Positions 1 to 50,814 of a stretch of DNA of 64,000 nucleotides are shown piece by piece. Each line of letters starts with the position of its first letter. The stretch's first letter is position 1. Where the stretch lies: assembly GCF_032062105.1 (NCBI RefSeq), contig NW_026923439.1:62001-126000 (forward strand), written 5' to 3'. The DNA comes from Saccostrea cucullata (Eukaryota). The position numbers and the translations under genes are program-made. The notes beneath the pieces were generated by a model. The model searched no databases. It worked only from the letters and a program-made list of their open reading frames with translations, and was not told where the DNA came from.

Positions 1-26506
<26,506 letters not shown>

Positions 26507-32639: not shown

Positions 32640-32882
32640 AATTTCTTACATCTTTTCCCTGCACGTTGACAGACGATCACTTTCTTCAAACCGGAAGTGT
32701 GTTTGTTGTAGTTTTCAGCAGAGAAGATTTTGTTATTATTTTTTCAAGCTGAGTTAAGTACAGTGGAAAATAATAATTTTTTGCGTATTTGACACTGAAG
32801 TAAATAAATCGATTCTTCTTTTCTTTTTTTTAATGTATTTTTTTAAATAAAAATAATATCCCCGGTACTGACAAGATGGCGG
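32640..32882. promoter_or_regulatory. Left half of the presumed PLEKHH/THADA bidirectional promoter
   Basis: ETS motif CCGGAAGT at 32691-32698; YY1-type CAAGATGGCGG at 32872-32882 cut by the TIR element; candidate minus-strand donor (plus cttac) at 32645-32649. Confidence 0.5.
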
Positions 32883-33417
32883 TGTAACCGTGAAAACTGT
32901 CGCTAGTGCTCAGTGTCGCTCTTAATAGAATATATAGGGGAAAGAGCGACACTGAGCACTGGCTTCTGCGCATGCCTAGGGATTTCGGTCGCTTCAAATC
33001 GAAGCGGTGTCCCACTGAATTTAATTCCATGGTAATAGTATCCAAAGTCGTAGATTTTTATGTTTTCTTTGTTTATTTTAATCTTAAAAGAAGGCAAGAC
33101 AAATAAAATTTTAAAATTTTAGAACTTTTCATATTTTTTTTTTACCTCGTATAGAATTATTAAACGATCTTTTAAATTTCTATATTATAGAGAATAAACG
33201 GCTACACATTTAATCGCGGTAAATTGAACAGATACTTGTATTTAAAAAAAAAAGAAAAAACATGCCACAGTCCCTCAGTCATTTCTTAATAGGTGTGAAC
33301 CGCGCCGTGGGCGTTATCTCAGACAGGTGTCAAAAATTACCTGTTTGTTAATAACTAACAAACATAGCTCCCCATGGTCGATTGATAATTTGATACCAAT
33401 TAAAGGTGTGAACGGAG

Positions 33418-36400
33418 GTTTCAGTTTCAGTTTCTTTATTTCTTTAAGCCAACTGGCCCATCAGAGTTATACAACAAACATGATAATAACAAAAAGAAAA
33501 AACATACAGAGAGAGTGAACGTAAAGAACACATACATGGGAATAATTCTATACATCAATTTTATTTTTTTCTTAACATTGTTGCTTCGTTCAAAAATTTG
33601 CCCAAATTTACGAGATCTTTAATATTGTGAGAACTTAACAGCTGAATTAATTTAAAGACACTAGGCCTAGTATAATAATACTTTTTCAAAAATTTCTTTC
33701 TTATATCAATATACAATGGACATTTCAAAATAAAATGAAATTCATCTTCTATATCATGGAGATTACAACATGTACATAATCTGTTATTTTTAGGTACGTT
33801 ATGGTGTCGACCTGTTTCAATATTCAACGTGTGATTGGATAACCTGAATTTTGTTAATAGCTGTCTTAATTTTTTGTCAATAGGTTTTGTTAAATACCAT
33901 TGCAAACAGAAATTGTCAAATAAATGTTGATATAAATTACACTTTGAAGAGTTTGATATATTTTCTAATATAGCTTGCCTGGAAACATCTAACAGTCGTT
34001 GTTTTATAATGAGATAAGATCTATCATTTAAATTATCTTCTGTCCAAAGTTGACCTAGACCTAAGAGGGACAATTCTTTTTTAATTTGTAAAATCCATTT
34101 GTCATTATGTAATACCATGCTTTCATAACAGGACTTAAGAATGCAATTTTCAGTTGTTCTCAGTTTGATCCAATATTTGAAAATTCTTAATTTCATTGTA
34201 ACTGCTAATGGAAAACGCCCGAGCTCTGAATAAATCAAACTGTTTGAGGTTTTCTTCCCCACACCTAGAGTATTTTTACAGAAATTTAAATGTACCTTTT
34301 CTACGTCAGAACATCTATGAAAACCCCATATCTCAGTTCCATAAAGTAACACGCTACATACATATGTATCAAAAATTGAACATAGAGTTTCTACATTAAA
34401 TTCATACCTCTTTAATTTACTTGAAATAGCAAACATAGCTTTTCTTCCTTGTTCAGCAGCATGCTTCTGCGTTTTTAAAAATTTCCCATTAAAGTTAAAT
34501 AACATACCTAGATATTTAAATTCATTCACAATTTCTAATTCAGCATTATTATAGAACCAGGATTCGTTATTGCGTAATTTACCACCATTTCTAAAGACAA
34601 CAATCTTTGTTTTTGTTACATTAACAGAAAGGCTCCATTCTTCAGTATAATTGTACAGTGTGTTTAACATTTTTTGTAAGCCTTCTGGAGATTCAGCAAA
34701 AATAACCATGTCGTCTGCATACATAAGTATGAATAAATTTAACATCTGTAAATCAATATATGGACAGTTATCTGATATAAAACCAACCTCGAAATCATTT
34801 ACATATAATGAAAATAATATTGGTGATAATGTTTCCCCTTGCATTAAACCTATATCATTGTGGAAGTAATCACTGAGGAAACCATTGTATTTAACACAAC
34901 TTTTAACATTATTGTATAAGGATTTGATTATCTTTAACATTTTACCTTGGATGCCTAAATGAAATAATTTTTGCCATAATTTTATCCTATCAACAGAATC
35001 GAATGCTTTTCGAAAGTCAACAAAACAGCAATATAATCTTTTCTTTATAGAAAGGTACTTATTTATAAGCGATTGCAGAACAAAAATAGCATCAGTTGTT
35101 GACATTCCTTTACGAAACCCAAATTGTGCATCCGTCAATATATCATAGGAGTGCTCCCATTCCAGTATCCTATTGTTTAGAACACTTGTAAATAATTTAC
35201 CAAAACAGCTTACAATAGATATACCACGATAATTGTTAACATCATTCTTATCTCCTTTTTTAAACAATGGAGTAATATATGAAACATTTTGACCATGATT
35301 CAGGGTAAAAACCAGAGTTAAAAATATTATTAAAGAGTTTATGTAGCAGCGGGAGCAATTCGTCGCGGCATTTCATAAACAGTTCGTTAACAATACAATC
35401 TTCTCCACAACTTTTATTTGTTTTTAACTTTTTAATTGCTGTGCATATTTCTTCGTAACTAATCTCTGTATCCAACTCGTCGTATACAGCATCCGAATAG
35501 AATTCTTTTTTCAAGTTGTCGCCCGTGTTAGAACCGAGATTTTTAAAATGAGTGAAGAAATCTTCTAAATTTAAATTACAATCAACATGCTTTGTCTTTT
35601 TCGTTTTAAAAAGTTTAAAGAATTGTTTTGGGTTCTGTTTCTTCAAAAAAGTAAGCATATCGCCCTCATGGCGTTTGTACTGTCGTTTAAGTTTATTTTC
35701 AAATTTTTTGTAAGTTTGTTTAGCGTTTGAAAGAACCTCTCTATTTTCTGATGCTTTATTTACATTAAACACATTTAGTTTTTGTTTGTACTCATTATAA
35801 AGATGTTTACACTTATCGTTAAACCATGGTTTATCCTCATATTCTTTAAATATTTTTATTGTATTAATGCCTTGCTGTGGGTTAGATTCACGAACATCAC
35901 AGAAAGGGAGTACGCAAGTATTTAATAATTCACAGAAGCTATCAACACAAGAATTAACATTCTCGATAGAAGTAAACTCTACATCTACAATACTTTGAAG
36001 CTCGTGTATTTTATTGTTCAAACAATCTTTAACAAGGCAAGAATTTTCGTCCTTCCACTTAACTGACCTCGCATTCACTCTACCGTGACAATTGTTTACT
36101 ACGTGTTCGTTATTCTGAATGGTCGAATATCTCAATGAAACACTAAAGGAAACAGGTGAATGGTCAGAAAAAACTGTAAAATTACCTGATTTGAACTTAC
36201 TTATACTGGATAATTGAGTACTTTCAACCAATACGTAATCTATCAAACTAAAACCTCTTTTACTATAAAAAGTCAAATTACCTACTTCATCACCATTTAT
36301 TCTGCCATTAACTATTCGAAAGCCAGTAGATTTACAAAAATCTAAAAGTTTTCTACCCAAACCATTTACACATTTATCCATATTATTACGCTTTATCGGA

Positions 36401-37210
36401 ACATTATCTTCGACGTAATTATCTTTTAAAAAATCTGAATAAGAGCCGTCTCGTAGAAGTTTATCGTGTTTGATATAGTCATCTTGCTCCGCTGTTCTAG
36501 CATTAAAGTCTCCAAAAATATATACCTGACCTTCATTTTTAAATTCACTATACAATTCCTCTAGTAATTGAAAAAAATTAACATCAACCTTTTCATAAAA
36601 AGAACTATTTTCGGAAGGAATGTAACAAAAAAATAAAAATATTGGGGTTTCACATTCGACTTTTAAGCAAATTACACTATCAAACAAGTTTTTAACTAAT
36701 TTTATCCTTGAACATAAAAAACTTCTATAAAAAATTACAATTCCTCCACCTTTTATTTTTCTGGGAACAATGAAATGTTCGTAACCTACCAAATGAAATT
36801 CATCGTCTGGATTAATCCAGCATTCACAAAGACAGATAACGTCGTAACTAGTAATGAATGAAACAAATTCAAAATGAGACAGTTTTTCGGATAGAGATCT
36901 TGCTATATTCCAAGATAGTACTGAAATTTCACTGCGGTCACTCTCAACGCGTCCCTAAGCGTTGCCACTTGCAGTTGGGTCAGGTGGTTGCTCGTCAGTT
37001 CTGAATTCCATCTCCTCTGGGTGCTTCTCAGACTCGTCTGGGATATAAGGCTTGCCGTCTACAATAAGTTTGTCTCTAACGAGTTTCACGCGCTTACCTT
37101 CGGCACGAAGACGGTGCATAACCGGAAGTAGATGTCTCCTTCGCTCGCTCATATCAGCTGGTAATTGCTCCTGGATGCCGTAGGGCTTGTTTTTGAACCG
37201 AGAACTGAAA
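33418..37210 (-). mobile_element. 5'-truncated non-LTR retrotransposon (APE-RT; RTEX/Daphne-like) with an ORF1 C-terminal remnant
   Basis: ORF1 tail 36955-~37200 (ERRRHLLPVM...VKLVRDKLIVDG). ORF2 has an endonuclease (SWNI, VICLCECW, GDFNART, SLIDY, SDHSP), RT (FVDFRKAFDSV, GLMQGETLSP, YADD) and a C-terminal CxxC...EDEFHFILKC. The 3' end has AATAAA plus a (GAAACT)n tail at ~33418-33440. Confidence 0.9.
33561..36954 (-). pseudogene. LINE ORF2 (endonuclease/reverse transcriptase) broken by one frameshift at ~35276-35281
   Basis: ORFs 35260..36792 and 33561..35267 overlap at SKCFI/TPLFKKGD within an (AT)n run. The frame is open upstream to the ORF1 stop at 36955-36957. Confidence 0.85.
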
Positions 37211-37321
37211 TCTAGTAACGAACCTTAAATATCTGTAATTTATCAAAATATAAGTTGAAAATGTATATAAGTTCTATCAACCAGTTTTTATTTAACAGAT
37301 AAATAACGAGAAACACGCATA

Positions 37322-40300
37322 ATTATGAAGAATGAGTATCAGTGAAAAGTGTGGCTCTTCAAAATGGCAGTTTCCTATTTTCTCACACCTGACTTATATA
37401 TCGTCTGTAAAACAGGTATACAGTAAAATTTCAAGCCGGTTTCAGTTGATATAGATGATTTAAGTATAATTTAATAATTCTAGAAGATAAAATTGTCGAA
37501 AATAATTATTTTGAAATAGTTATGAGCATCAGTGCTGAGTGTCGCTCTCCAAAATGGCAGTTTCCTATTTTCTCACACCTGACTTATATATCGTCTGTAA
37601 AACAGGTATACAGTAAAACTTCAAGCCGGTTTCAGTTGATATAGATGATTTAAGTATAATTTAATAATTCTAGAAGATAAAATTGTCGAAAATAATTATT
37701 TTGAAATAGTTATGAGCATCAGTGCTGAGTGTCGCTCTTCAAAATGGCAGTTTCCTATTTTCTCACACCTGACTTATATATCGTCTGTAAAACAGGTATA
37801 CAGTAAAACTTCAAGCCGGTTTCAGTTGATATAGATGATTTAAGTATAATTTAATAATTCTAGAAGATAAAATTGTCGAAAATAATTATTTTGAAATAGT
37901 TATGAGCATCAGTGCTGAGTGTCGCTCTTCAAAATGACAGTTTCCTATTTTCTCACACCTGACTTATATATCGTCTGTAAAACAGGTATACAGTAAAATT
38001 TCAAGCCGGTTTCAGTTGATATAGATGATTTAAGTATAATTTAATAATTCTACAAGAAAACATTGTCGAAAATAATTATTTTGATATAGTTATGAGCATC
38101 AGTGCTGAGTGTCGCTCTTCAAAATGACAGTTTCCTATTTTCTCACACCTGACTTATATATCGTCTGTAAAACAGGTATACAGTAAAACTTCAAGCCGGT
38201 TTCAGTTGATATAGATGATTTAAGTATAATTTAATAATTCTAGAAGATAAAATTGTCGAAAATAATTATTTTGAAATAGTTATGAGCATCAGTGCTGAGT
38301 GTCGCTCTCCAAAATGGCAGTTTCCTATTTTCTCACACCTGACTTATATATCGTCTGTAAAACAGGTATACAGTAAAATTTCAAGCCGGTTTCAGTTGAT
38401 ATAGATGATTTAAGTATAATTTAATAATTCTAGAAGAAAAAATTGTCGAAAATAATTATTTTGAAATAGTTATGAGCATCAGTGCTGAGTGTCGCTCTTC
38501 AAAATGGCAGTTTCCTATTTTCTCACACCTGACTTATATATCGTCTGTAAAACAGGTATACAGTAAAACTTCAAGCCGGTTTCAGTTGATATAGATGATT
38601 TAAGTATAATTTAATAATTCTAGAAGATAAAATTGTCGAAAATAATTATTTTGAAATAGTTATGAGCATCAGTGCTGAGTGTCGCTCTTCAAAATGGCAG
38701 TTTCCTATTTTCTCACACCTGACTTATATATCGTCTGTAAAACAGGTATACAGTAAAACTTCAAGCCGGTTTCAGTTGATATAGATGATTTAAGTATAAT
38801 TTAATAATTCTAGAAGATAAAATTGTCGAAAATAATTATTTTGAAATAGTTATGAGCATCAGTGCTGAGTGTCGCTCTTCAAAATGGCAGTTTCCTATTT
38901 TCTCACACCTGACTTATATATCGTCTGTAAAACAGGTATACAGTAAAACTTCAAGCCGGTTTCAGTTGATATAGATGATTTAAGTATAATTTAATAATTC
39001 TAGAAGATAAAATTGTCGAAAATAATTATTTTGAAATAGTTATGAGCATCAGTGCTGAGTGTCGCTCTCCAAAATGGCAGTTTCCTATTTTCTCACACCT
39101 GACTTATATATCGTCTGTAAAACAGGTATACAGTAAAATTTCAAGCCGGTTTCAGTTGATATAGATGATTTAAGTATAATTTAATAATTCTAGAAGAAAA
39201 AATTGTCGAAAATAATTATTTTGAAATAGTTATGAGCATCAGTGCTGAGTGTCGCTCTTCAAAATGGCAGTTTCCTATTTTCTCACACCTGACTTATATA
39301 TCGTCTGTAAAACAGGTATACAGTAAAACTTCAAGCCGGTTTCAGTTGATATAGATGATTTAAGTATAATTTAATAATTCTAGAAGATAAAATTGTCGAA
39401 AATAATTATTTTGAAATAGTTATGAGCATCAGTGCTGAGTGTCGCTCTTCAAAATGGCAGTTTCCTATTTTCTCACACCTGACTTATATATCGTCTGTAA
39501 AACAGGTATACAGTAAAATTTCAAGCCGGTTTCAGTTGATATAGATGAATTAAGTATAATTTAATAATTCTAGAAGATAAAATTGTCGAAAATAATTATT
39601 TTGAAATAGTTATGAGCATCAGTGCTGAGTGTCGCTCTTCAAAATGACAGTTTCCTATTTTCTCACACCTGACTTATATATCGTCTGTAAAACAGGTATA
39701 CAGTAAAACTTCAAGCCGGTTTCAGTTGATATAGATGATTTAAGTATAATTTAATAATTCTAGAAGATAAAATTGTCGAAAATAATTATTTTGAAATAGT
39801 TATGAGCATCAGTGCTGAGTGTCGCTCTCCAAAATGGCAGTTTCCTATTTTCTCACACCTGACTTATATATCGTCTGTAAAACAGGTATACAGTAAAATT
39901 TCAAGCCGGTTTCAGTTGATATAGATGATTTAAGTATAATTTAATAATTCTAGAAGAAAAAATTGTCGAAAATAATTATTTTGAAATAGTTATGAGCATC
40001 AGTGCTGAGTGTCGCTCTTCAAAATGGCAGTTTCCTATTTTCTCACACCTGACTTATATATCGTCTGTAAAACAGGTATACAGTAAAACTTCAAGCCGGT
40101 TTCAGTTGATATAGATGATTTAAGTATAATTTAATAATTCTAGAAGATAAAATTGTCGAAAATAATTATTTTGAAATAGTTATGAGCATCAGTGCTGAGT
40201 GTCGCTCTTCAAAATGGCAGTTTCCTATTTTCTCACACCTGACTTATATATCGTCTGTAAAACAGGTATACAGTAAAATTTCAAGCCAGTCTTACTTGAT

Positions 40301-40420
40301 ATACATCGTTTAGGTATAAGTCAATAATTCTAGAGGAAAAAATCGTAGGAAATAATTATTCTGAATTAGTTATGAGCATCAGGGATAAGTGTCGCTCTTC
40401 AAAATGGCAGTTTCATATTT
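37322..40420. repeat. 190-bp tandem repeat (satellite), about 16 near-identical units
   Basis: agtgctgagtgtcgctct recurs at 37531, 37721, 37911 ... 40191 (190-bp period), with degenerate edge units at 37341 and 40381. Confidence 0.97.
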
Positions 40421-40894
40421 AGGGGAATTTCAGACTTTGCACACCGGCGTTATAATACACAAAATAATTCAGCTGATCATCTTGATAAATTACATTTCCC
40501 AAGCTTTCTTGGAAGGACAGATATATTCCTTATCAACAGATTTGAGGCCCAGTTTAGTAAATCTGCACAATTTTTTATGCAAATCTGCAAATTAGGGAAC
40601 TTGTAATTTTTCTGCACTACTTTCTTCTCCTACCGATTCTAAAAATAATTAGTGGGATGTACTAAGTACACAACATACTGGTATTGTTAGGCATGTGAAT
40701 TATTGATACTTGTATTATATAATTTAATGTCATATCATTTCATACTCGGTATTCTTCCCGTTTCATTTATTGAGTTGCATTCCTGATATATATCTTACTA
40801 TATTGATATCGGTTATTTTTATTGAATATGGTATAAATTTAATACCTTGTAAAAGGAACGGTGTATCGTCTGCAGCGTGTTGTAGGATTTTTAT

Positions 40895-43375
40895 TCTCTG
40901 ATTTGAACATATTTTATTGATTATACTTTACAAATGGGATTGGGCAAAAGTTCTAAAAACTTATTACGCCCTCTCCCTACATATGCATTGTGTCAAACAT
41001 ATTTACATACATGGGTTTCAGCTTAAAATGAAATAACAATAATAATAATATAATAATAATATATAATAATCAGAGTAAAACACATTCAGTAGAATACATT
41101 TCATATGTCATAGACATGCTGTATAAGATTTACAATTAGAAATAATTATTGTATCAACCAAATCGTCCTGACTTTTTAATAAAAGTTTGTACAATAGAAA
41201 ATAGGTATTCATTTTCAAAATCATTTAACGATTTGTCTCCCCAGAGTAAAGTGTGAGTATCGACAGTGTGTAATTTACCCATTCGCAAAAATTTGTCAAA
41301 AAATTCTTTCCTGGCTTCTGTATATTTTTTGCATGAGAAGAAATAATGATGAGTATCCTCCACTCTTCCACAAGAACATAGTGGACTCAAGATTACATTA
41401 CATCGAAAAAGATCGCTATTAAGCACACAGTTATGTCTGAGCCTCGTGTGTATTATATTTAAGCGTCGATTTCCATAACTGAAGTAAGAGGGTGGCATTT
41501 GTTTATCGAAAGAAATAGACTTTTTAAAAATAGATAACGAGGGAGAATTTCTTACATTAAGAGGTAATGAGTTCCATTCTTCAATAACAAGGGGAACGAA
41601 AGTTGATTTGTAAGCTTGCAATCTGCATTTGGGTATGTTATAGTTCTGCGAGTTTCTCGTACTGTAACTTGATGAATTACATCGTAAGTTAGGGATTATA
41701 TCTGCGAGATATTCAGGAACTTGGTTTTTATCAATTTTATACATTGTAGTTAGTCTGGTCTTTTTCCTTCTTTCATGTAATGGTTCCCATCCAGTTTCAA
41801 TGTAAAGTGCATCTTTAGAAGCTAACAGAGTTAATCCTGTGACAATTCTAGCAGCACATAATTGTAATTTTTCTAATTTTTCGCTGTCACCTATATTACA
41901 TCCACCCCACACCAAGGAAGCGTATTCTAACTGTGGTCTAATGAAGGTTGTGTACATGAGTGAAAGAGTTTTTCGGTTGACAACAAATTTAAGTTTTTTT
42001 AACAAGCCCAATTTTTTATATGCATTGGCTAGAATAGTATCAATATGTGTAGACCAACTAAGATCTTGCGAGAAAAAAATTCCTAAATGTTTATGAAAAG
42101 AAACAAATTCTAGCTGACTTTGCTGGAAGAAAAGTTTAGGATAAATAACACTTTTTTTCAGGCTAAAAAATATTGCTTTAGTTTTAGTAGGATTGAATTT
42201 AAGAAGCCATTTTTTCGACCAGATTTCTAGCTTGTTAAGATCAGAATTCAGTTTGTTTTCAATAGTATTAACATTTTTAGATGACTGTTGTAGGGAGTTA
42301 TCGTCTGCAAATAATCTACAAAAACTTGTCATTTCTTCAGCAACATCATTAACATATATAAGAAATAATAAAGGTCCTAACACTGAGCCTTGAGGGACAC
42401 CGGCGTGTATAGGTTTTTCGTCAGATAGCAAGTTTCTGTATAAAACTCTTTGTGATCTACCTTCTATGTAACTCTTTAACCAATGAAACATATTTCCCTC
42501 TATACCATAAGTTCTAAGTTTGAACAAGAGACCCTTGTGCCACACACGATCAAATGCTTTAGAAAGATCACAGAATATCATACAACAATTTTCACCATCA
42601 TCGATGGCTTTAACAATAGTATCATATGTTTCTATTAGTTGATATACAGTGGAATGACCTGGTAAAAATCCAGCCTGGTATTTATAAAAAAGATTGTTGT
42701 CACGAAAGTGATTATACAAGTATTTGAATATGATTCGTTCCATTATTTTACCAATACAACTTAACAGTGACACAGGTCTATAATTAGACATAACAGATGG
42801 ATCATCTTTTTTAAATAAAGGGAGAACATTGGCAACTTTCCATTTGCAAGGAAAAATACAATCAACTAATGACCTATTAAACAATAAACATAATGGTTTT
42901 ACAATAGTATATATGGTAGATTTCAACATCTTGTGACTAATATTATCTGGACCTATTGCTTTGTTAACAGGAATAATTGAAATAATATCTATAATCTCTT
43001 GTTCATCAATACAGACTGTATCAAATAGGTTATTGCACACAGAATATAAATTAGGTAAAATAGCGTCGTTTTCGTCAATACAAGAGATAGAAGCAAAATA
43101 ATCATTTAAAACATCTATTTTCTCTTCATTTGTAAAAGCCACACGTGCGTCACCATTAACAGAGGTATACTGTAGAGGAGGAATATCGGTAGTAGATTTT
43201 ACTTTAAATATATCTCTCAATAACTTCCAGTAAAGTTTGGAATTATTTTTACTTGCGTCTGTAATATGATGCTCTATGTTATTATGATAATTTTCAATGG
43301 CGATTTTTTTCATATTGTTAAACTTATTCCTGCATTTCTTATATTTTTCCCAGTCAGAATTTTTTATTCTCTAAG
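40895..43375 (-). mobile_element. 5'-truncated CR1-type LINE
   Basis: 719-aa ORF 41154..43313 with RT motifs (NYRPVSLLS, DLSKAFDRVWH, GVPQGSVLGPLLFLIYVND, LFADD, IRPQLEYAS). The 3' UTR ends in aataaaatatgttcaaatc (plus-strand gatttgaacatattttatt at ~40900-40918). The endonuclease is missing because of truncation. Confidence 0.9.
41154..43313 (-). CDS. CR1-like reverse transcriptase ORF (uninterrupted, N-terminally truncated)
   Basis: ORF track 719 aa with a complete RT core and a C-terminal Cys/His motif (CSCGRVEDTHHYFFSC). Confidence 0.8.
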   Translation of the reverse strand: MKKIAIENYHNNIEHHITDASKNNSKLYWKLLRDIFKVKSTTDIPPLQYTSVNGDARVAFTNEEKIDVLNDYFASISCIDENDAILPNLYSVCNNLFDTVCIDEQEIIDIISIIPVNKAIGPDNISHKMLKSTIYTIVKPLCLLFNRSLVDCIFPCKWKVANVLPLFKKDDPSVMSNYRPVSLLSCIGKIMERIIFKYLYNHFRDNNLFYKYQAGFLPGHSTVYQLIETYDTIVKAIDDGENCCMIFCDLSKAFDRVWHKGLLFKLRTYGIEGNMFHWLKSYIEGRSQRVLYRNLLSDEKPIHAGVPQGSVLGPLLFLIYVNDVAEEMTSFCRLFADDNSLQQSSKNVNTIENKLNSDLNKLEIWSKKWLLKFNPTKTKAIFFSLKKSVIYPKLFFQQSQLEFVSFHKHLGIFFSQDLSWSTHIDTILANAYKKLGLLKKLKFVVNRKTLSLMYTTFIRPQLEYASLVWGGCNIGDSEKLEKLQLCAARIVTGLTLLASKDALYIETGWEPLHERRKKTRLTTMYKIDKNQVPEYLADIIPNLRCNSSSYSTRNSQNYNIPKCRLQAYKSTFVPLVIEEWNSLPLNVRNSPSLSIFKKSISFDKQMPPSYFSYGNRRLNIIHTRLRHNCVLNSDLFRCNVILSPLCSCGRVEDTHHYFFSCKKYTEARKEFFDKFLRMGKLHTVDTHTLLWGDKSLNDFENEYLFSIVQTFIKKSGRFG

Positions 43376-43689
43376 CACGAGTTCTTTAGTAAAGCCTATT
43401 AATTCTGGCGAATTGTGAATCTTTTTCGACATTGTTTCCACTATAAATAAAAGGAGCAGTGTTGAGACTGGACACCCTTGTGTCATTTTGCATTTCTGCC
43501 CATCTGTTACACTTTCTTTCGAACTTGTGCTGACATTTTACATAGCAATTCCCTATACATGTACGGCCTGAAGATTATTTTTAGATAGATATGATGCATT
43601 CCAGTAAAATGCGTTATTTTTATTTTGAATCTGTGTTCCTCTAAAAATTGACGCTTTCCAAATATGCTGCATCTGAATCTTGCACACTA

Positions 43690-44480
43690 GTAGCATAAGA
43701 AGAAAAATGGGCTACCGGTAAAGCAGGTGTACCCCAGTCTTCAATTGCAAGAGGTTTTAATGTTACGCACAGCACCATATGTTACGCACAGCATTTATAA
43801 AATATAAAAATGCAACACCAAATTAAATGTTCGCAAAAATACGAGATACCACGTGTAATATCAGCAGCAAAGAATCACTTCAGAGAATTACTAGTACGTA
43901 AAAGTGAATGTAAACAGTGACATCATCTACAGCATGAATTATCCCTAAACTGCAAAGATCATCTAGCAATACCCTTTTCAACTGACTAAGACTTATTGCA
44001 AAAGGATTACCCATGCCAGTGTTCTGGTCCCACAGCACTCCATGCAAATATCTACTTCAAAGATCTCAGATCAATGGAGTATGACCAAAGCATCACCATT
44101 GAACATTTTGGTGTAGCTAGTCCAGAATGTTTATCAGAGAGCCTGTTATTGAAGTGCTAGGGTTTCGTAATGAACATTAGACAGAAAACTGCCTCCAGGA
44201 CGTTAAAAAAGGTGGTGGTGGTAGTTTAGTGGAATGAAAAACGGTATTACACAAGAGTAAGACTGATTTGGTTCGTATTTAAAGGTCTTTGATGGTAAAA
44301 GGTACTCTAACTATGTTCTACCTGAACACGCCTATTCAATTTTGCAATGACAACCTCATTCTTGCAAAACAACAGAAACCTGATTCTGCAATTGTCACCT
44401 CGAGAGTTAAGCCTAACTAAGCAGCATTAGACAAAAGGGATTGACATGATCCATTTGCCAAAGACAATCACATCCCTAGA
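43690..44480 (+). pseudogene. Heavily decayed Tc1-type transposase
   Basis: Fragmentary peptides: AGVPQSSIARGFNVTHSTI (N-terminal HTH, ~43722-43780), IPRVISAAKNH (~43845-43880) and NCLQDVKKGGGGSL (the GGGSVMVW motif, ~44188-44230), with many stops and frameshifts. Confidence 0.6.
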
Positions 44481-44554
44481 CCCTGCAACAGCTGACTAAA
44501 GCTCTACATTTGGAGTGGGAGAGTATTCCTATAGAGTTTTTATAACACACATTA

Positions 44555-46800
44555 CCCTTTGACTGTAGATTTCAACTTGCCTGTGAACTACCCCCTGACT
44601 GCAGACTCCATTTTGACTATAAAGAACCCCCCTGACTATGAACTTTGACCTTGACTATGAACTATCCCTTGACTGTGAACTACCCCCTGACCGTGAACTT
44701 CCCCCTGACTGTAGACTCCACCTTGACTATGAACAACCCCAAACTGGAGACGCCACCTTAACTATGAAGTATCCCCAAATGTAGACTCCACCTTGACTGT
44801 GAACTACCCCTGACTGTGAACTACCCCCCTGACTGTACAATCCAACTTGACTATAAACAACTCCAACCTGTAGACTCGATTGTGAACTATTCCTTTACTA
44901 TGAACTACCCACTGACTGTAGTTTCCACATTGACTATGAATCACCCCTTGACTGAGACTCCACCTTAATTATGAAGTATCCTCAAACTGTAGACTCCAAT
45001 TTGACTGTGAACTACCCACTGACTGTAGACTCCACCTTGATTGTGAACTACCCCTTGACTGTGAACTACCCACTGATTGTAGACTCTACCTTGACTATGA
45101 ACTAACCCTTTACTGTAGACTCCACCTTAACTATGAAGTGCAGTAAAACTCGATTAGTACGAACACGGAGATTGCGAATTCACAGATACAGCAAAGTTAT
45201 CTTGGATCCCCAGCTATATAAATTTAACGAATTCCTTATACAGATATAACGAATTACGGATATAATGAAGTTATTTCATAGGTCCCAGTGTCTTCGCTAT
45301 AACCGAGTTTAACTGTATCCCCAAACTGTAGACTCCAATTTGACTGTGAAATACCCCCTGACTACACACTCCACCTTGACTATGAACAACCCCCTGACTG
45401 TAGTCTCCACCTTCACTATGAACAACCCCATGACTGCAGACTCCACCTTGACTGTGAAATAACACCTGACTGTAGACTCCATCTTGAGTGTGAAGTTTTT
45501 ATTACACACAGTGCCCTCTGACTGTAGATTTCAACTTGACTGTGAACTACCCCCTGACTGTAAACTCCACATTAACTGTGAACAACCCCCTGACTGTAGA
45601 CTCCATCTTGACTGTGAAGTTTTTATTATATACAGTGCCCTCTGACTGTAGATTTAAACTTGACTGTGAACTACCCACTGACTGTACACTCCACCTTGAC
45701 TATGAACTACCCCTGACTGTAGACTCCACCTTGATTATGAACTTTCCCTGACTGTAGACTCCATAGACGCCACCTTGACTATGAGCTACCCCTTGAACCT
45801 TGACTGTACACTCCACCTTGACTATGAACTACCCCTGACTGTACACTCCAAACTGTAGACTTCCTTAATTGTGAACTATCCCTTGACTATGAACTACCCT
45901 TTGAACCTTTACTGTAAATTCCACCTTTATTGTGAACTACCCGCTGACTGTAGACTCCACCTTGACTATGAACTACCCCTTGAACCTTGACTGTAGACTC
46001 CACCTTGACTATGAACTACCCCATGAACCTTGACTGTAGACTCCACCTTGATTATGAACTTTCCCTGACTGTAGACTCCATAGACGCCACCTTGACTATG
46101 AGCTTCCCCTTGAACCTTGACTGTACACTATGAACTACCCCTGACTGTACACTCCAAACTGTAGACTTCCTTAATTGTGAACTATCCCTTGACTATGAAC
46201 TACCCTTTGACTATAGACTCCACCTTGACTATGAACTACCCCTGACTGTACACTCCAAACTGTAGAATTCCTTAATTGTGAACTATCCCTTGACTATGAA
46301 CTACCTTTGACTATAGACTCCACCTTGACTATGAACTACCCCTGACCATAGACTCCACCTTGACTATGAACTACCCTTTGTACCTTTACTGTAAATTCCA
46401 CCTTTATTGTGAACTACCCACTGACTGTAGACTCCACCTTGACTATGAACTACCCCTGACTGTACACTCCAAACTGTAGACTTCCTTAATTGTGAACTAT
46501 TCCTTGACTATGAACTTCCCTTTGACTATAGACTCCACCTTGACTATGAACTACCCCTTGAACCTTGACTGTAGACTCCACCTTGACTATGAACTTCCCC
46601 TGACTGTAGACACCACCTTGACTATGAACTACCCTTTGAACCTTTACTGTAAATTCCACCTTTATTGTGAACTACCCGCTGACTGTAGACTCCACCTTGA
46701 CTATGAACTACCCCTTGAACCTTGACTGTAGACTCCACCTTGACTATGAACTACCCCATGAACCTTGACTGTAGACTCCACCTTGACTATGAACTACCCT
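44555..46800. repeat. Complex minisatellite (~35-43 bp units built on tgactgtagactccaccttgactatgaactacccc)
   Basis: Dozens of imperfect copies are visible; interrupted at ~45140-45316. Confidence 0.92.
45140..45316. mobile_element. TA-type MITE (cagtaaaactcg...cgagtttaactg) inserted in the minisatellite
   Basis: Short inverted termini; it interrupts the unit motif gaagTAtcccc. A relative is present at ~55888-55982. Confidence 0.65.
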
Positions 46801-47697
46801 ATTGCAACACAAGACCTCAATGCATGCTGTTTCATCCAAAGGAGCAGTCTCCACGTCCAACAGTGGGATTTGAAACCACAACATAAGAACCAACCCCTTA
46901 CTTGGCAACTCTAGAAAATTTCTAACCACTGCACCATGCATGCGACAGCACAGCAATTTAGAAGATCCATAAACTGACTCAAAAAAACTTAAATTGTTGC
47001 CCAAAAGCAAGAAAATGGTATCACTAGGACCATCAAAATAATTGGTCTAGTATCTGTCTATTTATCATAATTATCATGAAACTATTAACAATAAAATATA
47101 CTTTACATGCATTTCATACTCTATACTATACCTCTCATACAGGCCTATCTTGGCCTTTGAAGAACATTAAAAAAGGTATTTTTTGCTCATTTTTAATCAT
47201 CTATTATTTACAAGTCTACCTATCATTAAATCAATGAAAGTTCTATTTGTGTAATAAAAAAGTGTTCTTGTGCAGTTCTCTTATTCTATAAACCTTTCAA
47301 ATACATGTATATTATTGTCCCTGCCATTGCAAAAGTGGGGGGGGGGACAATATAAATCTCATCCGTCTGTACTTCTGTCAATCTGTAGTTCTGTCCATCA
47401 CAAAAACTTTAAATTTGGTCATAATAGTAAGATTCTCAGCCAACCTTGGTCTTTCAGTCAGGTGATGTAACCTAATTAGCGTCTGAAACTTACACAGCTT
47501 TTCATTCATGGCTGAAATATAGATTTCGGCAAACATCAACAAGTTTAGAGATAATACAATGAAAGTTTGTTGTACGGCAAGTGGTGGGGCTTAGTCACAT
47601 TTGGTGATGTGCCATATACCCTGGAACTAAAAGTGAGAGCCTGCCAGGGATGATCCTGGGTTGGGGTCTTTAAACCAAGACCTTTAAGAACCTTAAT

Positions 47698-47825
47698 GTG
47701 GCAGTCAGCCCAGTTAGATCGCCAGTGACCGGATAGATCAGTTGGTTATTTGAGACCTGACCAGAGATTCAGGGGGCCACGGTTTGAATCTCAGTCTGGT
47801 CAGCATTGTTTTTCTCCTCTCCCAT
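47698..47825 (+). repeat. tRNA-derived repeat (SINE-like), decayed copy
   Basis: Similar to 58168-58295, including the upstream gtggcagtcagcc...gatcgccagtg and the B-box region. Confidence 0.55.
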
Positions 47826-50814
47826 AAAAGGAAAAGATCCGAAGGGGACATCAGATCATTAGAGTGAAATTACTCCTACTCTCAGCATAGCTCTATCATG
47901 TCTATTAACAATACTCATTTTCTTATACTTATATTGTCTTCACTTTTTTATAGAATAATGTTTAGCAAAAAGTATAATAAATGTTAGTACAGTAAGAAAA
48001 AATGTATGTTAAGAGAAATTTTATTTGATCAAGCCGTTCAATTGAATTTCAGGTTAAAATGTAATTTCTTGAATATCTTAAACAATTGTCAATCTGTCAT
48101 TAAACACTTACAACATGTGTACAAACTAATGAATTATTTGGATTTTATAGTAATTTTTAAATGGATTTCAAATTTAATTTAAAGTGTAAAAAATAGATAG
48201 GTCAATTTTTCCCCAAATTCATTTTCTCTGATACTTTGATCTTTTGCTCTAAGATACAAAATCTCTTCTTTATATGATATGAAAGAAATTCGATCACACA
48301 TTTTTGTCCACATAGTTTGAAATATGGTCTGTAAGAAAGTTGTGAAATCAGACATTCAACGTTTTTCAACATTATCAATTAATTTATTGAAAACTTGCAT
48401 GATGCTGTTTATAAAGACAATATTTTTGTTACTGGTACTTGAATTCAATAAGTTTAGTTATAATGATACTGGTAAATTTGAATATTAAGATATTATGTAA
48501 AAATAGAGCATACATATAAGTGTCAGAATTGAAAATAATTCACAAGTAACTATGCTACACATAAAGTTATCTCATGAGAAATTGTATAATTCAATTTTTA
48601 CAAAAAAAAAATCAACAGAATGATTCCAATGGGTCCCAAAATTGTGTCAGATTAAGGAAAATTGAACTGATAGTGTTAGATATTTCATCACAATATTTTA
48701 TCTTTAATACTTTTTATCTTTAACCTCTTGATATGACATTGACCTTTACGGTACATTAAACATCTCGTAATATATGTGTCCAAATATCAGCCCTCTACTA
48801 TATATGGAACATAAGTTACACTGCATTTCGTAACAGACTTACAGTCTGTACTGCATTTAAACAGCATTAAGCCATTCTAAAATGTAAGCTACCAAGTGAC
48901 CGATACATGTATATAGAATTCTCTGATTTTTTTCCCCACAAAATATGTCAATTTTTGCTTAAGTAGCGCATAAAATATCTACCAAACTAAGCGATTTTGT
49001 CGTCAAATACTGGGCAAGTTCTTTTATAGTTGTCTTACTGGTAGCTTGTCTAGCATTGTAGTGCATATGCAAGATGTTTTTTTTTTCACTTTACTATCTG
49101 GTTTCATCTCTTTGTATGATATATAATTTTATATTGTGTGTGGACTCTAGACTCAGATCATGCTGATAGATGTTTGAAGTTATAAATCTAAGTTTATCAT
49201 CACTGTAATGAAAATGAACTGTCTATCCCAACATTAACAATATTTCAGTGACATTGCATCTTACTGAACGGTGTGTCGATTTACCCAAATGGAGCCAAAG
49301 ATGACTCAAATGGACTTCTGTAGACTTTATATCAAAAATAAAATGCATCTACAGTGTATATATATATAAAAATAATTATTTATTTTTGCATTTAGATATT
49401 TATATTGTTGAATATTCAGAATAATGGCTATTGAAATAAATGTGTTTTGTGTTTATGACAAACATTCAAATTATTGTATTAAAAAAAAAAAATTATTCAT
49501 TACAATTAAGTAAATTATTTTAAAATATATGAGTTTACCAATCAGAAAATTTCACAAAGTTATATTCTTTTTTAGTAAATCAGTACGTAGCAACAGGGGG
49601 CCGGGGGCTTGCTCCACCTCTATTTTCCAGACATAACTTTTAGTTTTACTGTATTAAAAATGTTCATTGAAAGCCCCCCTCCACCACACACACTTTCAAA
49701 AAAAAGATGCTACATCACTATAAATGATATTACTATTTTATCATAATTAAGTCCCTTTGCTTAAATCGACGCAATTTACTGAATGTCACCTATCATGGAT
49801 CATCATTGAACATATACACTGTATAAATGAATCAATGTGAACAGAACTCATCTAACCAAAAACTATATGATGAAAAATGATTGAAAACTGCTCAGTTTTT
49901 AATTTATGACAGAGAATGTTAACACCTAAACATTCATAGGGAAAATCCACATTAGTCTTTGTGTACAAGAAAAAAAAAAAACTTTTCAGCATTATAGACA
50001 CATTAAAACCACAATAAATAGAGGAAATTCGCGTCGCAACTTTATACTGGTTGCAAGTGGCGAGACCATAATTTAACCTTACTTGTGTCTAACATTACAT
50101 TTATCGGCAAAACAAACGATAATTATTTTTATTTTATCTTGTTAAAATACTGTCTTACTTACAATAGATCGGTTTTGATTGCGAGTTTACTAATCATAAT
50201 ATTGTTCTCTCGAGTGCAAACAGCTGATTAAGTTGGATGCCGATCTCGATGTTTAAAAACATTAAACAGTTTATAGTACACTTCTGCTGTCGCTTTCTTT
50301 TCCCAAATAGTTTTTTTTTTCAGTCAATTAATAAATATCTAATTAAATTAGTCATATATTGCACTTCTTCTTATGTAATTTTAGAGATGAAGTATCACAT
50401 GAAAGCCCAGATCAGATGCCGATCGCGATGCAATAGCGTCGAATGTCAAACACTTATTTTTCAAGATTTTGCTGAAAATATTCAAAAAACCAGAATTCTT
50501 TAACAGTCTTGGAACTTTATTACTTCGATTTTACTTCATTTTAAACACTAATTGCGTCTATATAAGGCGATTACAACTTTCTCGGGGTCTAATTATACGA
50601 GTGTCGAATTGCACGGCTACCGCTTTTTTCAGAGCGACACTGAGCACTAGCGACAGTTTTCACTGGTACAGCGGCCCACATGAGTGAAAATGCTGCTGTC
50701 AGACTACATTTGCCATTTGGTGGAAAACATCGCTGAATCGGTCAACATGATACTTACCAAAAGAGAATACCACAAGCAACTTTCTTAATAAACATTTTAG
50801 GCTATTTGTTGAAA

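What the first reader, a model, noticed from the sequence alone, without database searches (positions are those of the whole stretch)
37322..40420. Each satellite unit carries the transposon's own TIR motif plus a YY1-like core
Seen: every 190-bp unit contains AGTGCTGAGTGTCGCTCT, a 17/18 match to the inner TIR (AGTGCTCAGTGTCGCTCT), followed closely by CAAAATGGCAG, which resembles the CAAGATGGCGG target. Inference: the array is native to the element, about 16 putative transposase-binding sites at roughly nucleosome spacing. It could act as a transposition enhancer, a transposase decoy, or a satellite being born from a subterminal repeat. It independently ties the interior to the TIRs.
Basis: partly seen in the sequence, partly recalled or inferred. 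Interest (0 to 1): 0.7.

Follow-up and report, generated by a model that had tools for sequence, protein, structure and literature searches.

The report
Oyster transposon growing its own satellite
A 3-kb run of 190-base repeats inside a 17.8-kb jumping element in an oyster carries, in nearly every repeat, a short DNA word also found at the element's ends, so the repeats likely grew out of the element's own end region, a known way for satellite DNA to start, and no function for them is shown.

Summary
Observation largely confirmed. The array (37332-40420, 16.3 x 190 bp) carries the 18-nt motif exactly at 15 of 17 positions; its 17/18 match to the TIR exceeds all 1000 shuffles (best 15). The element is real: 40-bp TIRs (38/40), TGT..ACA ends, 4-bp GCGG duplication, and public contigs show its right end joined to many unrelated flanks, mostly after GCG(G). 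It sits between head-to-head PLEKHH-like and THADA genes. New: the TIR is two tandem 16-bp boxes; all 22 close box copies in the window lie inside the element, and the array's first unit carries the outer-box variant. Without a nested LINE, the array starts 642 bp from the left end. Best reading: a subterminal repeat of a non-autonomous element with Ginger1-like ends, recently expanded; boxes are likely transposase sites. Not shown: that other copies carry the array, that the monomer is absent elsewhere, any binding, or any function. No transposase was found. The YY1-like word is an 8/9 match that 1.6% of shuffled units reach. Same pattern as Tetris/TIR-220 and Galileo.

The parts
32872..32882 (+). 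Host YY1-type motif CAAGATGGCGG; its last four bases are the left copy of the target duplication
   Evidence: only strict AANATGGCG in the window; motif definition from PMC4871433 passages
32879..32882 (+). Left target-site duplication GCGG
   Evidence: 4-bp direct match at the TGT/ACA boundary; the other 12 symmetric boundaries tried gave 0-3 bp
32883..32922 (+). Left TIR, 40 bp: 6-bp end, outer box (32889-32904), inner box (32905-32920)
32943..32960 (-). Inverted inner copy of the 18-nt motif, forming a hairpin with the left TIR
   Evidence: the sequence next to it also occurs in contigs of runs X1 and X9 (loose ends at 50648)
33419..37225 (-). Nested 5'-truncated LINE (endonuclease and reverse transcriptase ORFs); boundaries read by eye
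   Evidence: Pfam Exo_endo_phos E 1.5e-8 and RVT_1 E 5.8e-36; ends
37332..40420 (+). 190-bp tandem array, 17 box copies; homogeneous centre (units 2-15, 1.2% mean pairwise difference), diverged edges, 4-unit periodicity
37341..37356 (+). Box of unit 1, with the outer-TIR spacer; 37335-37356 matches the first 22 nt of the right TIR at 18 of 22
37234..37259 (+). Left arm of a weak 27-bp inverted repeat around the array (partner 40468-40494); begins TGTAA; flanks differ at 1 of 4
   Evidence: 12 of 1000 shuffles (610-bp flank), 2 of 1000 (200-bp flank)
40468..40494 (-). Right arm of that weak inverted repeat
41032..43465 (-). Second nested LINE fragment with AAT tail; right boundary approximate
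   Evidence: RVT_1 E 6.4e-36
44553..46799 (+). Degenerate 18/36-bp minisatellite inside the element, without the box
50631..50670 (-). Right TIR, 40 bp, 38 of 40 identical to the left, same two boxes
   Evidence: many contigs end or change flank here
50671..50674 (+). Right target-site duplication GCGG, 140 bp before the THADA start codon
50815..50892 (+). First coding exon of THADA (host)
   Evidence: spliced contigs
26345..26506 (-). First coding exon of a PLEKHH1/2-like gene (host), head-to-head with THADA

Best explanation
The array lies inside a 17.8-kb element with 40-bp inverted ends and a GCGG duplication and repeats a 16-bp box that also builds those ends, so it is likely a subterminal repeat of this non-autonomous transposon that recently expanded from a few diverged copies to about 16, probably by unequal exchange or slippage and probably without a selected function. 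Steps. Shown: the element's ends, duplication and multi-site family; the two-box TIR; box sharing; subterminal position; recent block-wise expansion. Inferred: that the box is the transposase-binding site; that the mobilising enzyme is a Ginger-type integrase encoded elsewhere; that a short ancestral array (about three units) is part of the family; that the expansion is neutral. The YY1-like word is most likely a passenger next to the box.
For: Element: TIR 38/40, TGT..ACA ends, 4-bp GCGG duplication. In one search summed contig depth at 50640-50665 is 2351, 4516, 177 and 3711 in four runs against 5, 12-31, 2-10 and 102 on the neighbouring THADA exon; of the 18 contigs in the shown rows with loose ends at 50668-50677, 14 (8 rows, all with different flank consensus) carry on through GCG(G) first; 16 further rows were not shown. 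GCGG/CCGC occurs at only 37 places in 64 kb. X1 record 8 starts exactly at 50671 with 33 unaligned letters before it, as an empty site would (letters not printed). Box: 22 copies with at most 1 mismatch, all inside the element; two 2-mismatch copies lie outside (the pattern was drawn from these copies). 17/18 versus at most 15 in 1000 shuffles. Unit 1 has the outer-box spacer, units 2-16 nearly the inner-box spacer, unit 17 a third spacer: fixed halves with a free 3-nt spacer, as a protein site would show. Position 642 bp from the left end without the LINE. Units 2-15 differ by 1.2%, one variant recurs every 760 bp, edges are up to 20% diverged. Precedent: TIR-220 of Tetris shares 37 bp with the TIR's outer domain (PMC4079207, passages); Galileo's internal repeats hold footprint-defined transposase sites (PMC3688188, abstract).
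Against: No other copy of the element's interior was seen, so the array may be private to this insertion or belong to a separate unit. A weak 27-bp inverted repeat starting TGTAA brackets the array. The unit has no significant match in the right subterminal 1.3 kb (32 and 23 of 300 shuffles), and only a weak inverted match in the left interior (3 of 1000, one of nine tests). No integrase or transposase was found in 30 read-through frames of the non-LINE, non-repeat interior. The duplication GCGG is not among the published Ginger1 targets, and the right end reads TGTAC, not TGTNR (PMC2836005). In the diverged last unit the 27 nt covering the box's second half and the YY1-like word are unchanged while 18 of 88 preceding sites differ, which hints at constraint and fits a neutral passenger less well. 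All four runs laid behave like RNA and differ from the window at several sites, so they are not the window's individual.
Confidence: 0.6

Rival explanations
1. The array belongs to a separate, smaller mobile unit (about 37234-40494) of a related family that uses the same box, or to a dispersed satellite family, and it landed inside the large element later.
For: 27-bp inverted repeat starting TGTAA on both sides of the array, 12 of 1000 and 2 of 1000 shuffles. The element already holds two LINEs and other nested pieces. One search shows contigs that share the TIR but have other inner sequence (loose ends before 50626), so related families exist.
Against: The arms are AT-rich, contain no box, and their flanks agree at only 3 of 4 bases; the test was one of nine. 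A later arrival of a box-bearing unit exactly in the subterminal zone would be a coincidence. No HINE ends or GTCY microsatellite near the array, although the same scan found them at 22.8-24.0 kb.
Confidence: 0.2
2. The array is a selected regulator of transposition: extra transposase sites that raise end recognition (enhancer) or soak up and restrain the enzyme (decoy or inhibitor).
For: Bipartite box kept in all 17 positions with at most 1 mismatch; no variable site among units 2-15 falls in the box (variable positions 28, 36, 98, 128, 152, 157, 160, 184). Extra sites are proposed to help in Galileo and Tetris and shown to inhibit about 6-fold in piggyBat (PMC11707139 section 10).
Against: With 8 variable sites in 190, none in a 16-bp box is expected about half the time. 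This copy is swollen by LINE insertions, one of which now parts the array from the end by 3.8 kb. One copy cannot show selection. Tetris authors suggest long arrays disable the element.
Confidence: 0.1
3. The box and the adjacent CAAAATGGC word are host transcription-factor sites; the array works as a cluster of regulatory sites for the flanking PLEKHH-like and THADA genes, and its likeness to the TIR reflects a shared host factor.
For: The element sits in the shared upstream region of two head-to-head genes, in CpG-rich DNA (observed/expected about 1.0-1.2 against 0.4 for the window). The unit word fits the YY1-family core described in PMC4871433 and is unchanged in the diverged last unit. 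TIR sequence is abundant in RNA-like contigs.
Against: The box occurs nowhere in the host flanks at 0-1 mismatch. The unit word lacks the CG of CGCCATNTT, is broken in 3 of 17 copies and arises in 1.6% of shuffles. The array is 4.4 kb and 10 kb from the two gene starts' nearest element ends.
Confidence: 0.1

Closest known systems
[quoted passage not shown]
   Same: Non-autonomous TIR element; AT-rich roughly 200-bp internal unit sharing a short stretch with the outer TIR; expansion into kb-size homogeneous arrays inside the element; enhancer-then-disabling idea already proposed there.
   Different: Tetris is a foldback element with repeats in both long TIRs; here the TIRs are 40 bp, the array is at one end only, and the ends and duplication are Ginger-like.
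Galileo, Drosophila (PMC3688188, abstract and outline)
   Same: The terminal binding motif recurs in internal tandem repeats.
   Different: P-superfamily THAP transposase with binding shown by footprinting; here no enzyme is identified and no binding is tested.
Ginger1 DNA transposons (PMC2836005, passages); CgiSat41 of Crassostrea gigas, 1736 bp, labelled DNA/Ginger1 (PMC8268682 table 1)
   Same: TGT..ACA ends, TIR at the short end of the 40-270 bp range, 4-bp GC-rich, sequence-specific duplication; Ginger1-labelled repeats exist in oysters.
   Different: Target GCGG instead of CCGG or CCGT/ACGG; right end TGTAC; no integrase in this copy; 17.8 kb against 2.6-7 kb. CgiSat41's first 400 nt do not hold the motif and its unit is element-sized.
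Cg_HINE non-autonomous Helentrons of the Pacific oyster (PMC7492417, parts 1-2 of 7 and supplement 1)
   Same: Short satellite-like arrays carried inside oyster mobile elements; terminal motif with an inverted copy just inside the left end.
   Different: HINEs have 11-12 bp subterminal repeats, a microsatellite and a 3' hairpin, and Helitron-type elements make no duplication; this element has true 40-bp TIRs, a 4-bp duplication, and no HINE ends near the array.

Membership tests
Ginger1 | TIRs of about 40-270 bp | tested here: met
   40 bp, 38 of 40 identical
Ginger1 | 5' ends TGTNR | tested here: inconclusive
   left TGTAA fits, right TGTAC misses the fifth base
Ginger1 | 4-bp target duplication | tested here: met
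   GCGG at 32879-32882 and 50671-50674
Ginger1 | Duplication is CCGG or CCGT/ACGG | tested here: not met
   GCGG here and GCG(G) after 14 of 18 shown contigs; so filed as Ginger1-like ends, not as a member
Ginger1 | Gypsy-like integrase (YPYY, zinc finger, DDE, GPY/F) in the element or an autonomous partner | tested here: inconclusive
   none in this copy; the rest of the genome could not be searched
Ginger2/Tdd | AT-rich target RTATAY | tested here: not met
   target is GC-rich; definition from PMC2836005
HINE (non-autonomous Helentron) | 11-12 bp subterminal repeats, left microsatellite, 3' hairpin around the array | tested here: not met
   nine published end motifs and a GTCY scan hit only outside 32883-50670; unknown HINE ends would be missed
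HINE (non-autonomous Helentron) | No target duplication | tested here: not met
   4-bp duplication
Foldback elements (Tetris, Galileo) | Long TIRs with the tandem repeat in both arms | tested here: not met
   no significant unit match in the right subterminal 1.3 kb
Foldback elements (Tetris, Galileo) | Internal unit shares a motif with the terminus | tested here: met
Transposase-binding subterminal repeat | Binding by the cognate transposase | not testable with these tools
   no enzyme identified; needs EMSA or footprint
YY1 site | Consensus CGCCATNTT (reverse AANATGGCG) | tested here: inconclusive
   unit 8 of 9, keeps the family core; flank 9 of 9
YY1 site | YY1 occupancy | not testable with these tools
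   needs ChIP or EMSA
Classical satellite DNA | Long or abundant arrays across the genome | not testable with these tools

The most novel reading that the evidence does not exclude
An undescribed oyster family with Ginger1-like ends and a new strict target (GCGG) homes to CpG-rich gene starts, and its subterminal unit pairs the transposase box with a YY1-class core, so that the expanding array is at once a transposase sink and a host-factor platform planted in the middle of a head-to-head promoter: a satellite born at an active gene start.
Probability: 0.12. Interest if true: 0.6.

Novelty: new member of a known kind. Interest (0 to 1): 0.35.

Why it matters
It is a clean, dated-by-divergence example of a satellite-like array arising inside a cut-and-paste element from a unit that carries the terminal motif. 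The spacer variants predict the binding site (a bipartite 16-bp box) of a transposase class whose end recognition I found no paper on in these searches. The host element is arguably more interesting than the array: it appears to favour GCGG, which would steer it to gene starts, and here it splits the THADA start from its likely YY1 motif by 17.8 kb. The principle (TIR-derived repeats seeding satellites) is already in print for Tetris and Galileo, so the array itself is not a surprise.

Tried and rejected
No genome held, so no genome-wide monomer map. Motif scans: viral contigs 0; metagenome contigs 9 single hits with GC 0.41-0.65 and no extension past about 22 nt, taken as chance; prokaryote genomes 0; these collections are not expected to hold oyster DNA, so they say nothing about distribution. 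Reads could be laid on the right end only; the array and left end have no read data. My early idea that the two 'TIRs' were just host promoter motifs was dropped. HINE carrier rejected. Transposase search: long ORFs, 30 read-through frames against Pfam with no hit below E 0.07; a stretch at 43690-44550 looks Tc1-like by eye (motifs recalled) but gave only HTH hits at E 0.06-0.2, no homolog and one repetitive protein matched over 14 residues: inconclusive, and a Tc1 enzyme would not fit a GCGG duplication (TA is typical, PMC10045372 passages). C. gigas satellitome supplement: motif absent from the held text, where entries are cut at 400 nt; CgiSat04 shares a 14-nt word with the unit, seen by eye only, not aligned, probably chance. 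The supplement of PMC11136912 (five oyster satellitomes) could not be read and could hold this monomer. Full-text search for the motif found only unrelated papers by title (listing only). Earlier-finding look-ups by sequence and for 'Ginger' were empty. Run shares were at most 0.17; 4 of 24 runs were laid.

Full report
1. Observation. Tandem Repeats Finder gives 37332-40420, period 190, 16.3 copies, 97% matches. The 18-nt motif is exact at 15 of 17 motif positions; the last partial unit has 3 mismatches and the first 4. The C-form occurs three times outside the array: 32905(+), 32943(-), 50631(-). Treating the array as one unit, the best 18-nt match to the 40-bp TIR is 17/18, and 1000 dinucleotide shuffles of the unit reach at most 15. 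CAAAATGGCAG follows after one base, exact at 14 of 17 positions, with a G-to-A change in 3.

2. Setting. The host is an oyster: an exon at 61.8 kb matches THADA of Saccostrea echinata at 86%. THADA starts at 50815 on +; a PLEKHH1/2-like gene starts at 26506 on -. The genes are head-to-head and the element lies between them. No genome is held for this window.

3. Is the element real? At first I doubted it, because both 'TIRs' lie in promoter-like, CpG-rich DNA. Two results changed that. (a) The arms 32883-32922 and 50631-50670 are 38 of 40 identical, begin TGT and end ACA, and are flanked by the same four bases, GCGG; the other 12 symmetric boundaries tried gave 0-3 matching bases. (b) Contigs of 4 of the 24 listed runs laid on 50380-51150 pile up on the TIR (summed depth 2351, 4516, 177, 3711 at 50640-50665, against 5, 12-31, 2-10 and 102 on the THADA exon; the tool warns that depth is no copy number) and leave it into unrelated flanks. 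Of 18 contigs in the shown rows with loose ends at 50668-50677, 14 in 8 rows with different consensus flanks run through GCG(G) first; 4 leave at 50668-50670 (three of them the same sequence); 16 more rows were not shown. GCGG or CCGC occurs 37 times in 64 kb, so this points to a sequence-specific target. In X9 the inner 180 bp of the stretch are shallower (40-46) than the exon (102), so the depth argument rests on the TIR itself and on X1 and X6. One X1 contig begins at 50671 with 33 unaligned letters before it, as expected of an empty allele, but the letters were not printed. All four runs look like RNA (contigs stop at the first THADA donor, almost no intron cover) and differ from the window at several sites.

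4. What kind of element. Ginger1 has 40-270 bp TIRs, TGTNR ends and 4-bp duplications of CCGG or CCGT/ACGG (PMC2836005, passages). TIR length and duplication length fit; the target is one base off and the right end reads TGTAC. The interior holds two LINEs, the array, a minisatellite and about 6.2 kb of other DNA (one boundary approximate), in which 30 read-through frames gave no Pfam hit below E 0.07. A decayed Tc1-looking stretch (recalled motifs) stayed inconclusive. So: non-autonomous, Ginger1-like ends, membership not established. A Helentron carrier, the usual host of oyster tandem repeats (PMC7492417, parts 1-2 and supplement 1), is not supported: published end motifs hit only elsewhere in the window.

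5. Anatomy of the link. The TIR is a 6-bp end plus two tandem 16-bp boxes, AGTG-nnn-AS-TGTCGCT, with spacer AAA (outer) and CTC (inner). All 22 box copies with at most one mismatch lie inside the element: four in the TIRs, one inverted just inside the left end, 17 in the array; two 2-mismatch copies lie outside (the pattern was derived from these copies, so this count is partly circular). Units 2-16 have spacer CTG, unit 17 ATA, and unit 1 AAA; the head of unit 1 matches the first 22 nt of the right TIR at 18 of 22. Fixed halves with a free spacer are what a protein-binding site would show (inference). If the LINE at 33419-37225 is discounted, the array starts 642 bp from the left end.

6. History of the array. 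Units 2-15 differ by 1.2% on average; one variant recurs at 37522, 38282, 39042 and 39802, every four units; the first 22 nt of unit 1 and the second half of unit 16 (18 differences in positions 98-185) are much more diverged. This is the pattern of a short old array whose middle unit was recently amplified in blocks (inference: unequal exchange or slippage).

7. The YY1-like word. The in vitro YY1 consensus is CGCCATNTT and an AAGATGGCG motif is reported in vivo (PMC4871433, passages). The left flank matches 9 of 9 and is host DNA outside the element; the unit matches 8 of 9 and lacks the CG. AANATGGC occurs in 82 of 5000 shuffled units and 6 times elsewhere in the window; three copies lose the core. 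In its favour, in the diverged last unit 27 consecutive bases covering the box's second half and this word are unchanged (counted by hand). Verdict: open, weak.

8. Results against the best reading. A 27-bp inverted repeat starting TGTAA brackets the array (12 of 1000 shuffles with a 610-bp flank, 2 of 1000 with 200 bp; flanks agree at 3 of 4; one of nine tests), which leaves room for a nested mini-element. The unit has no counterpart near the right end.

9. Comparison and novelty. Tetris has 220-bp AT-rich repeats sharing 37 bp with the outer TIR that expanded into satellite arrays, and its authors already propose the enhancer-then-disabling scenario (PMC4079207, passages). Galileo's internal repeats hold transposase sites (PMC3688188, abstract and outline). 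Extra subterminal sites can inhibit (piggyBat, PMC11707139, abstract and section 10). Internal tandem repeats also occur in Merlin elements (PMC8101967, passages). A Ginger1-labelled 1736-bp 'satellite' is listed for C. gigas (PMC8268682, passages and supplement parts 1-2). Searches for Ginger1 with oyster (4 papers) and Ginger1 with satellite and tandem repeat (3 papers; listings only apart from PMC8268682) showed no description of a TIR-motif array inside a Ginger-type element; Repbase and the unreadable supplement of PMC11136912 (passages of the main text) could hold it. Three earlier notes on this genome (unchecked) report other TIR elements with satellite-like arrays, which suggests the pattern is common in this oyster.

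10. Verdict. Real link, real element, familiar kind. The array most likely descends from the element's own subterminal repeat (0.6); nested or dispersed origin 0.2; selected enhancer or decoy 0.1; host-factor platform 0.1. New member of a known kind; interest 0.35.

Noticed in passing
window 32879-50674: The element splits the shared upstream region of head-to-head PLEKHH-like and THADA genes; its right end lies 140 bp before the THADA start. One contig (X1 record 8) starts at the duplication with 33 unaligned letters, as an empty allele would.
   Followed up: partly
window 50668-50677: Shown flanks follow the right end with GCG(G); none of the shown rows reads CCGC, although a non-palindromic target entered in random orientation should give both. 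Oriented insertion, or an effect of the 16 rows not shown.
   Followed up: no
window 50626-50670: Runs X1, X3 and X9 share a contig in which 45 nt of the TIR region sit between other sequences, with CCGG and a TGTAACC start just before: possibly a tiny derivative or a sister family with a CCGG target.
   Followed up: no
window 43690-44550: Heavily decayed stretch that looks like a Tc1/mariner transposase by eye; statistics inconclusive.
   Followed up: partly
window 24000-24480 and about 22770-23300: Elements with Cg_HINE_1- and Cg_HINE_4-type end motifs and GTCY-type microsatellites in a PLEKHH-like intron.
   Followed up: partly
window 10976-11604: A 45-bp x 14 tandem array begins at the end of a PLEKHH-like exon and repeats the exon's last codons; could supply alternative splice donors.
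   Followed up: no
window 44553-46799: Degenerate 18/36-bp minisatellite with a small insertion at 45141-45318 whose ends match 55887-55981 in inverse.
   Followed up: no
window 13068-13118 and 21406-21450: Alternative first coding exons of the PLEKHH-like gene matching other oysters' isoform starts.
   Followed up: no
window 51181-51316, 53995-54151, 59947-60442, 20098-20773, 14209-14318: Several small palindromic or inverted-repeat insertions in introns.
   Followed up: no
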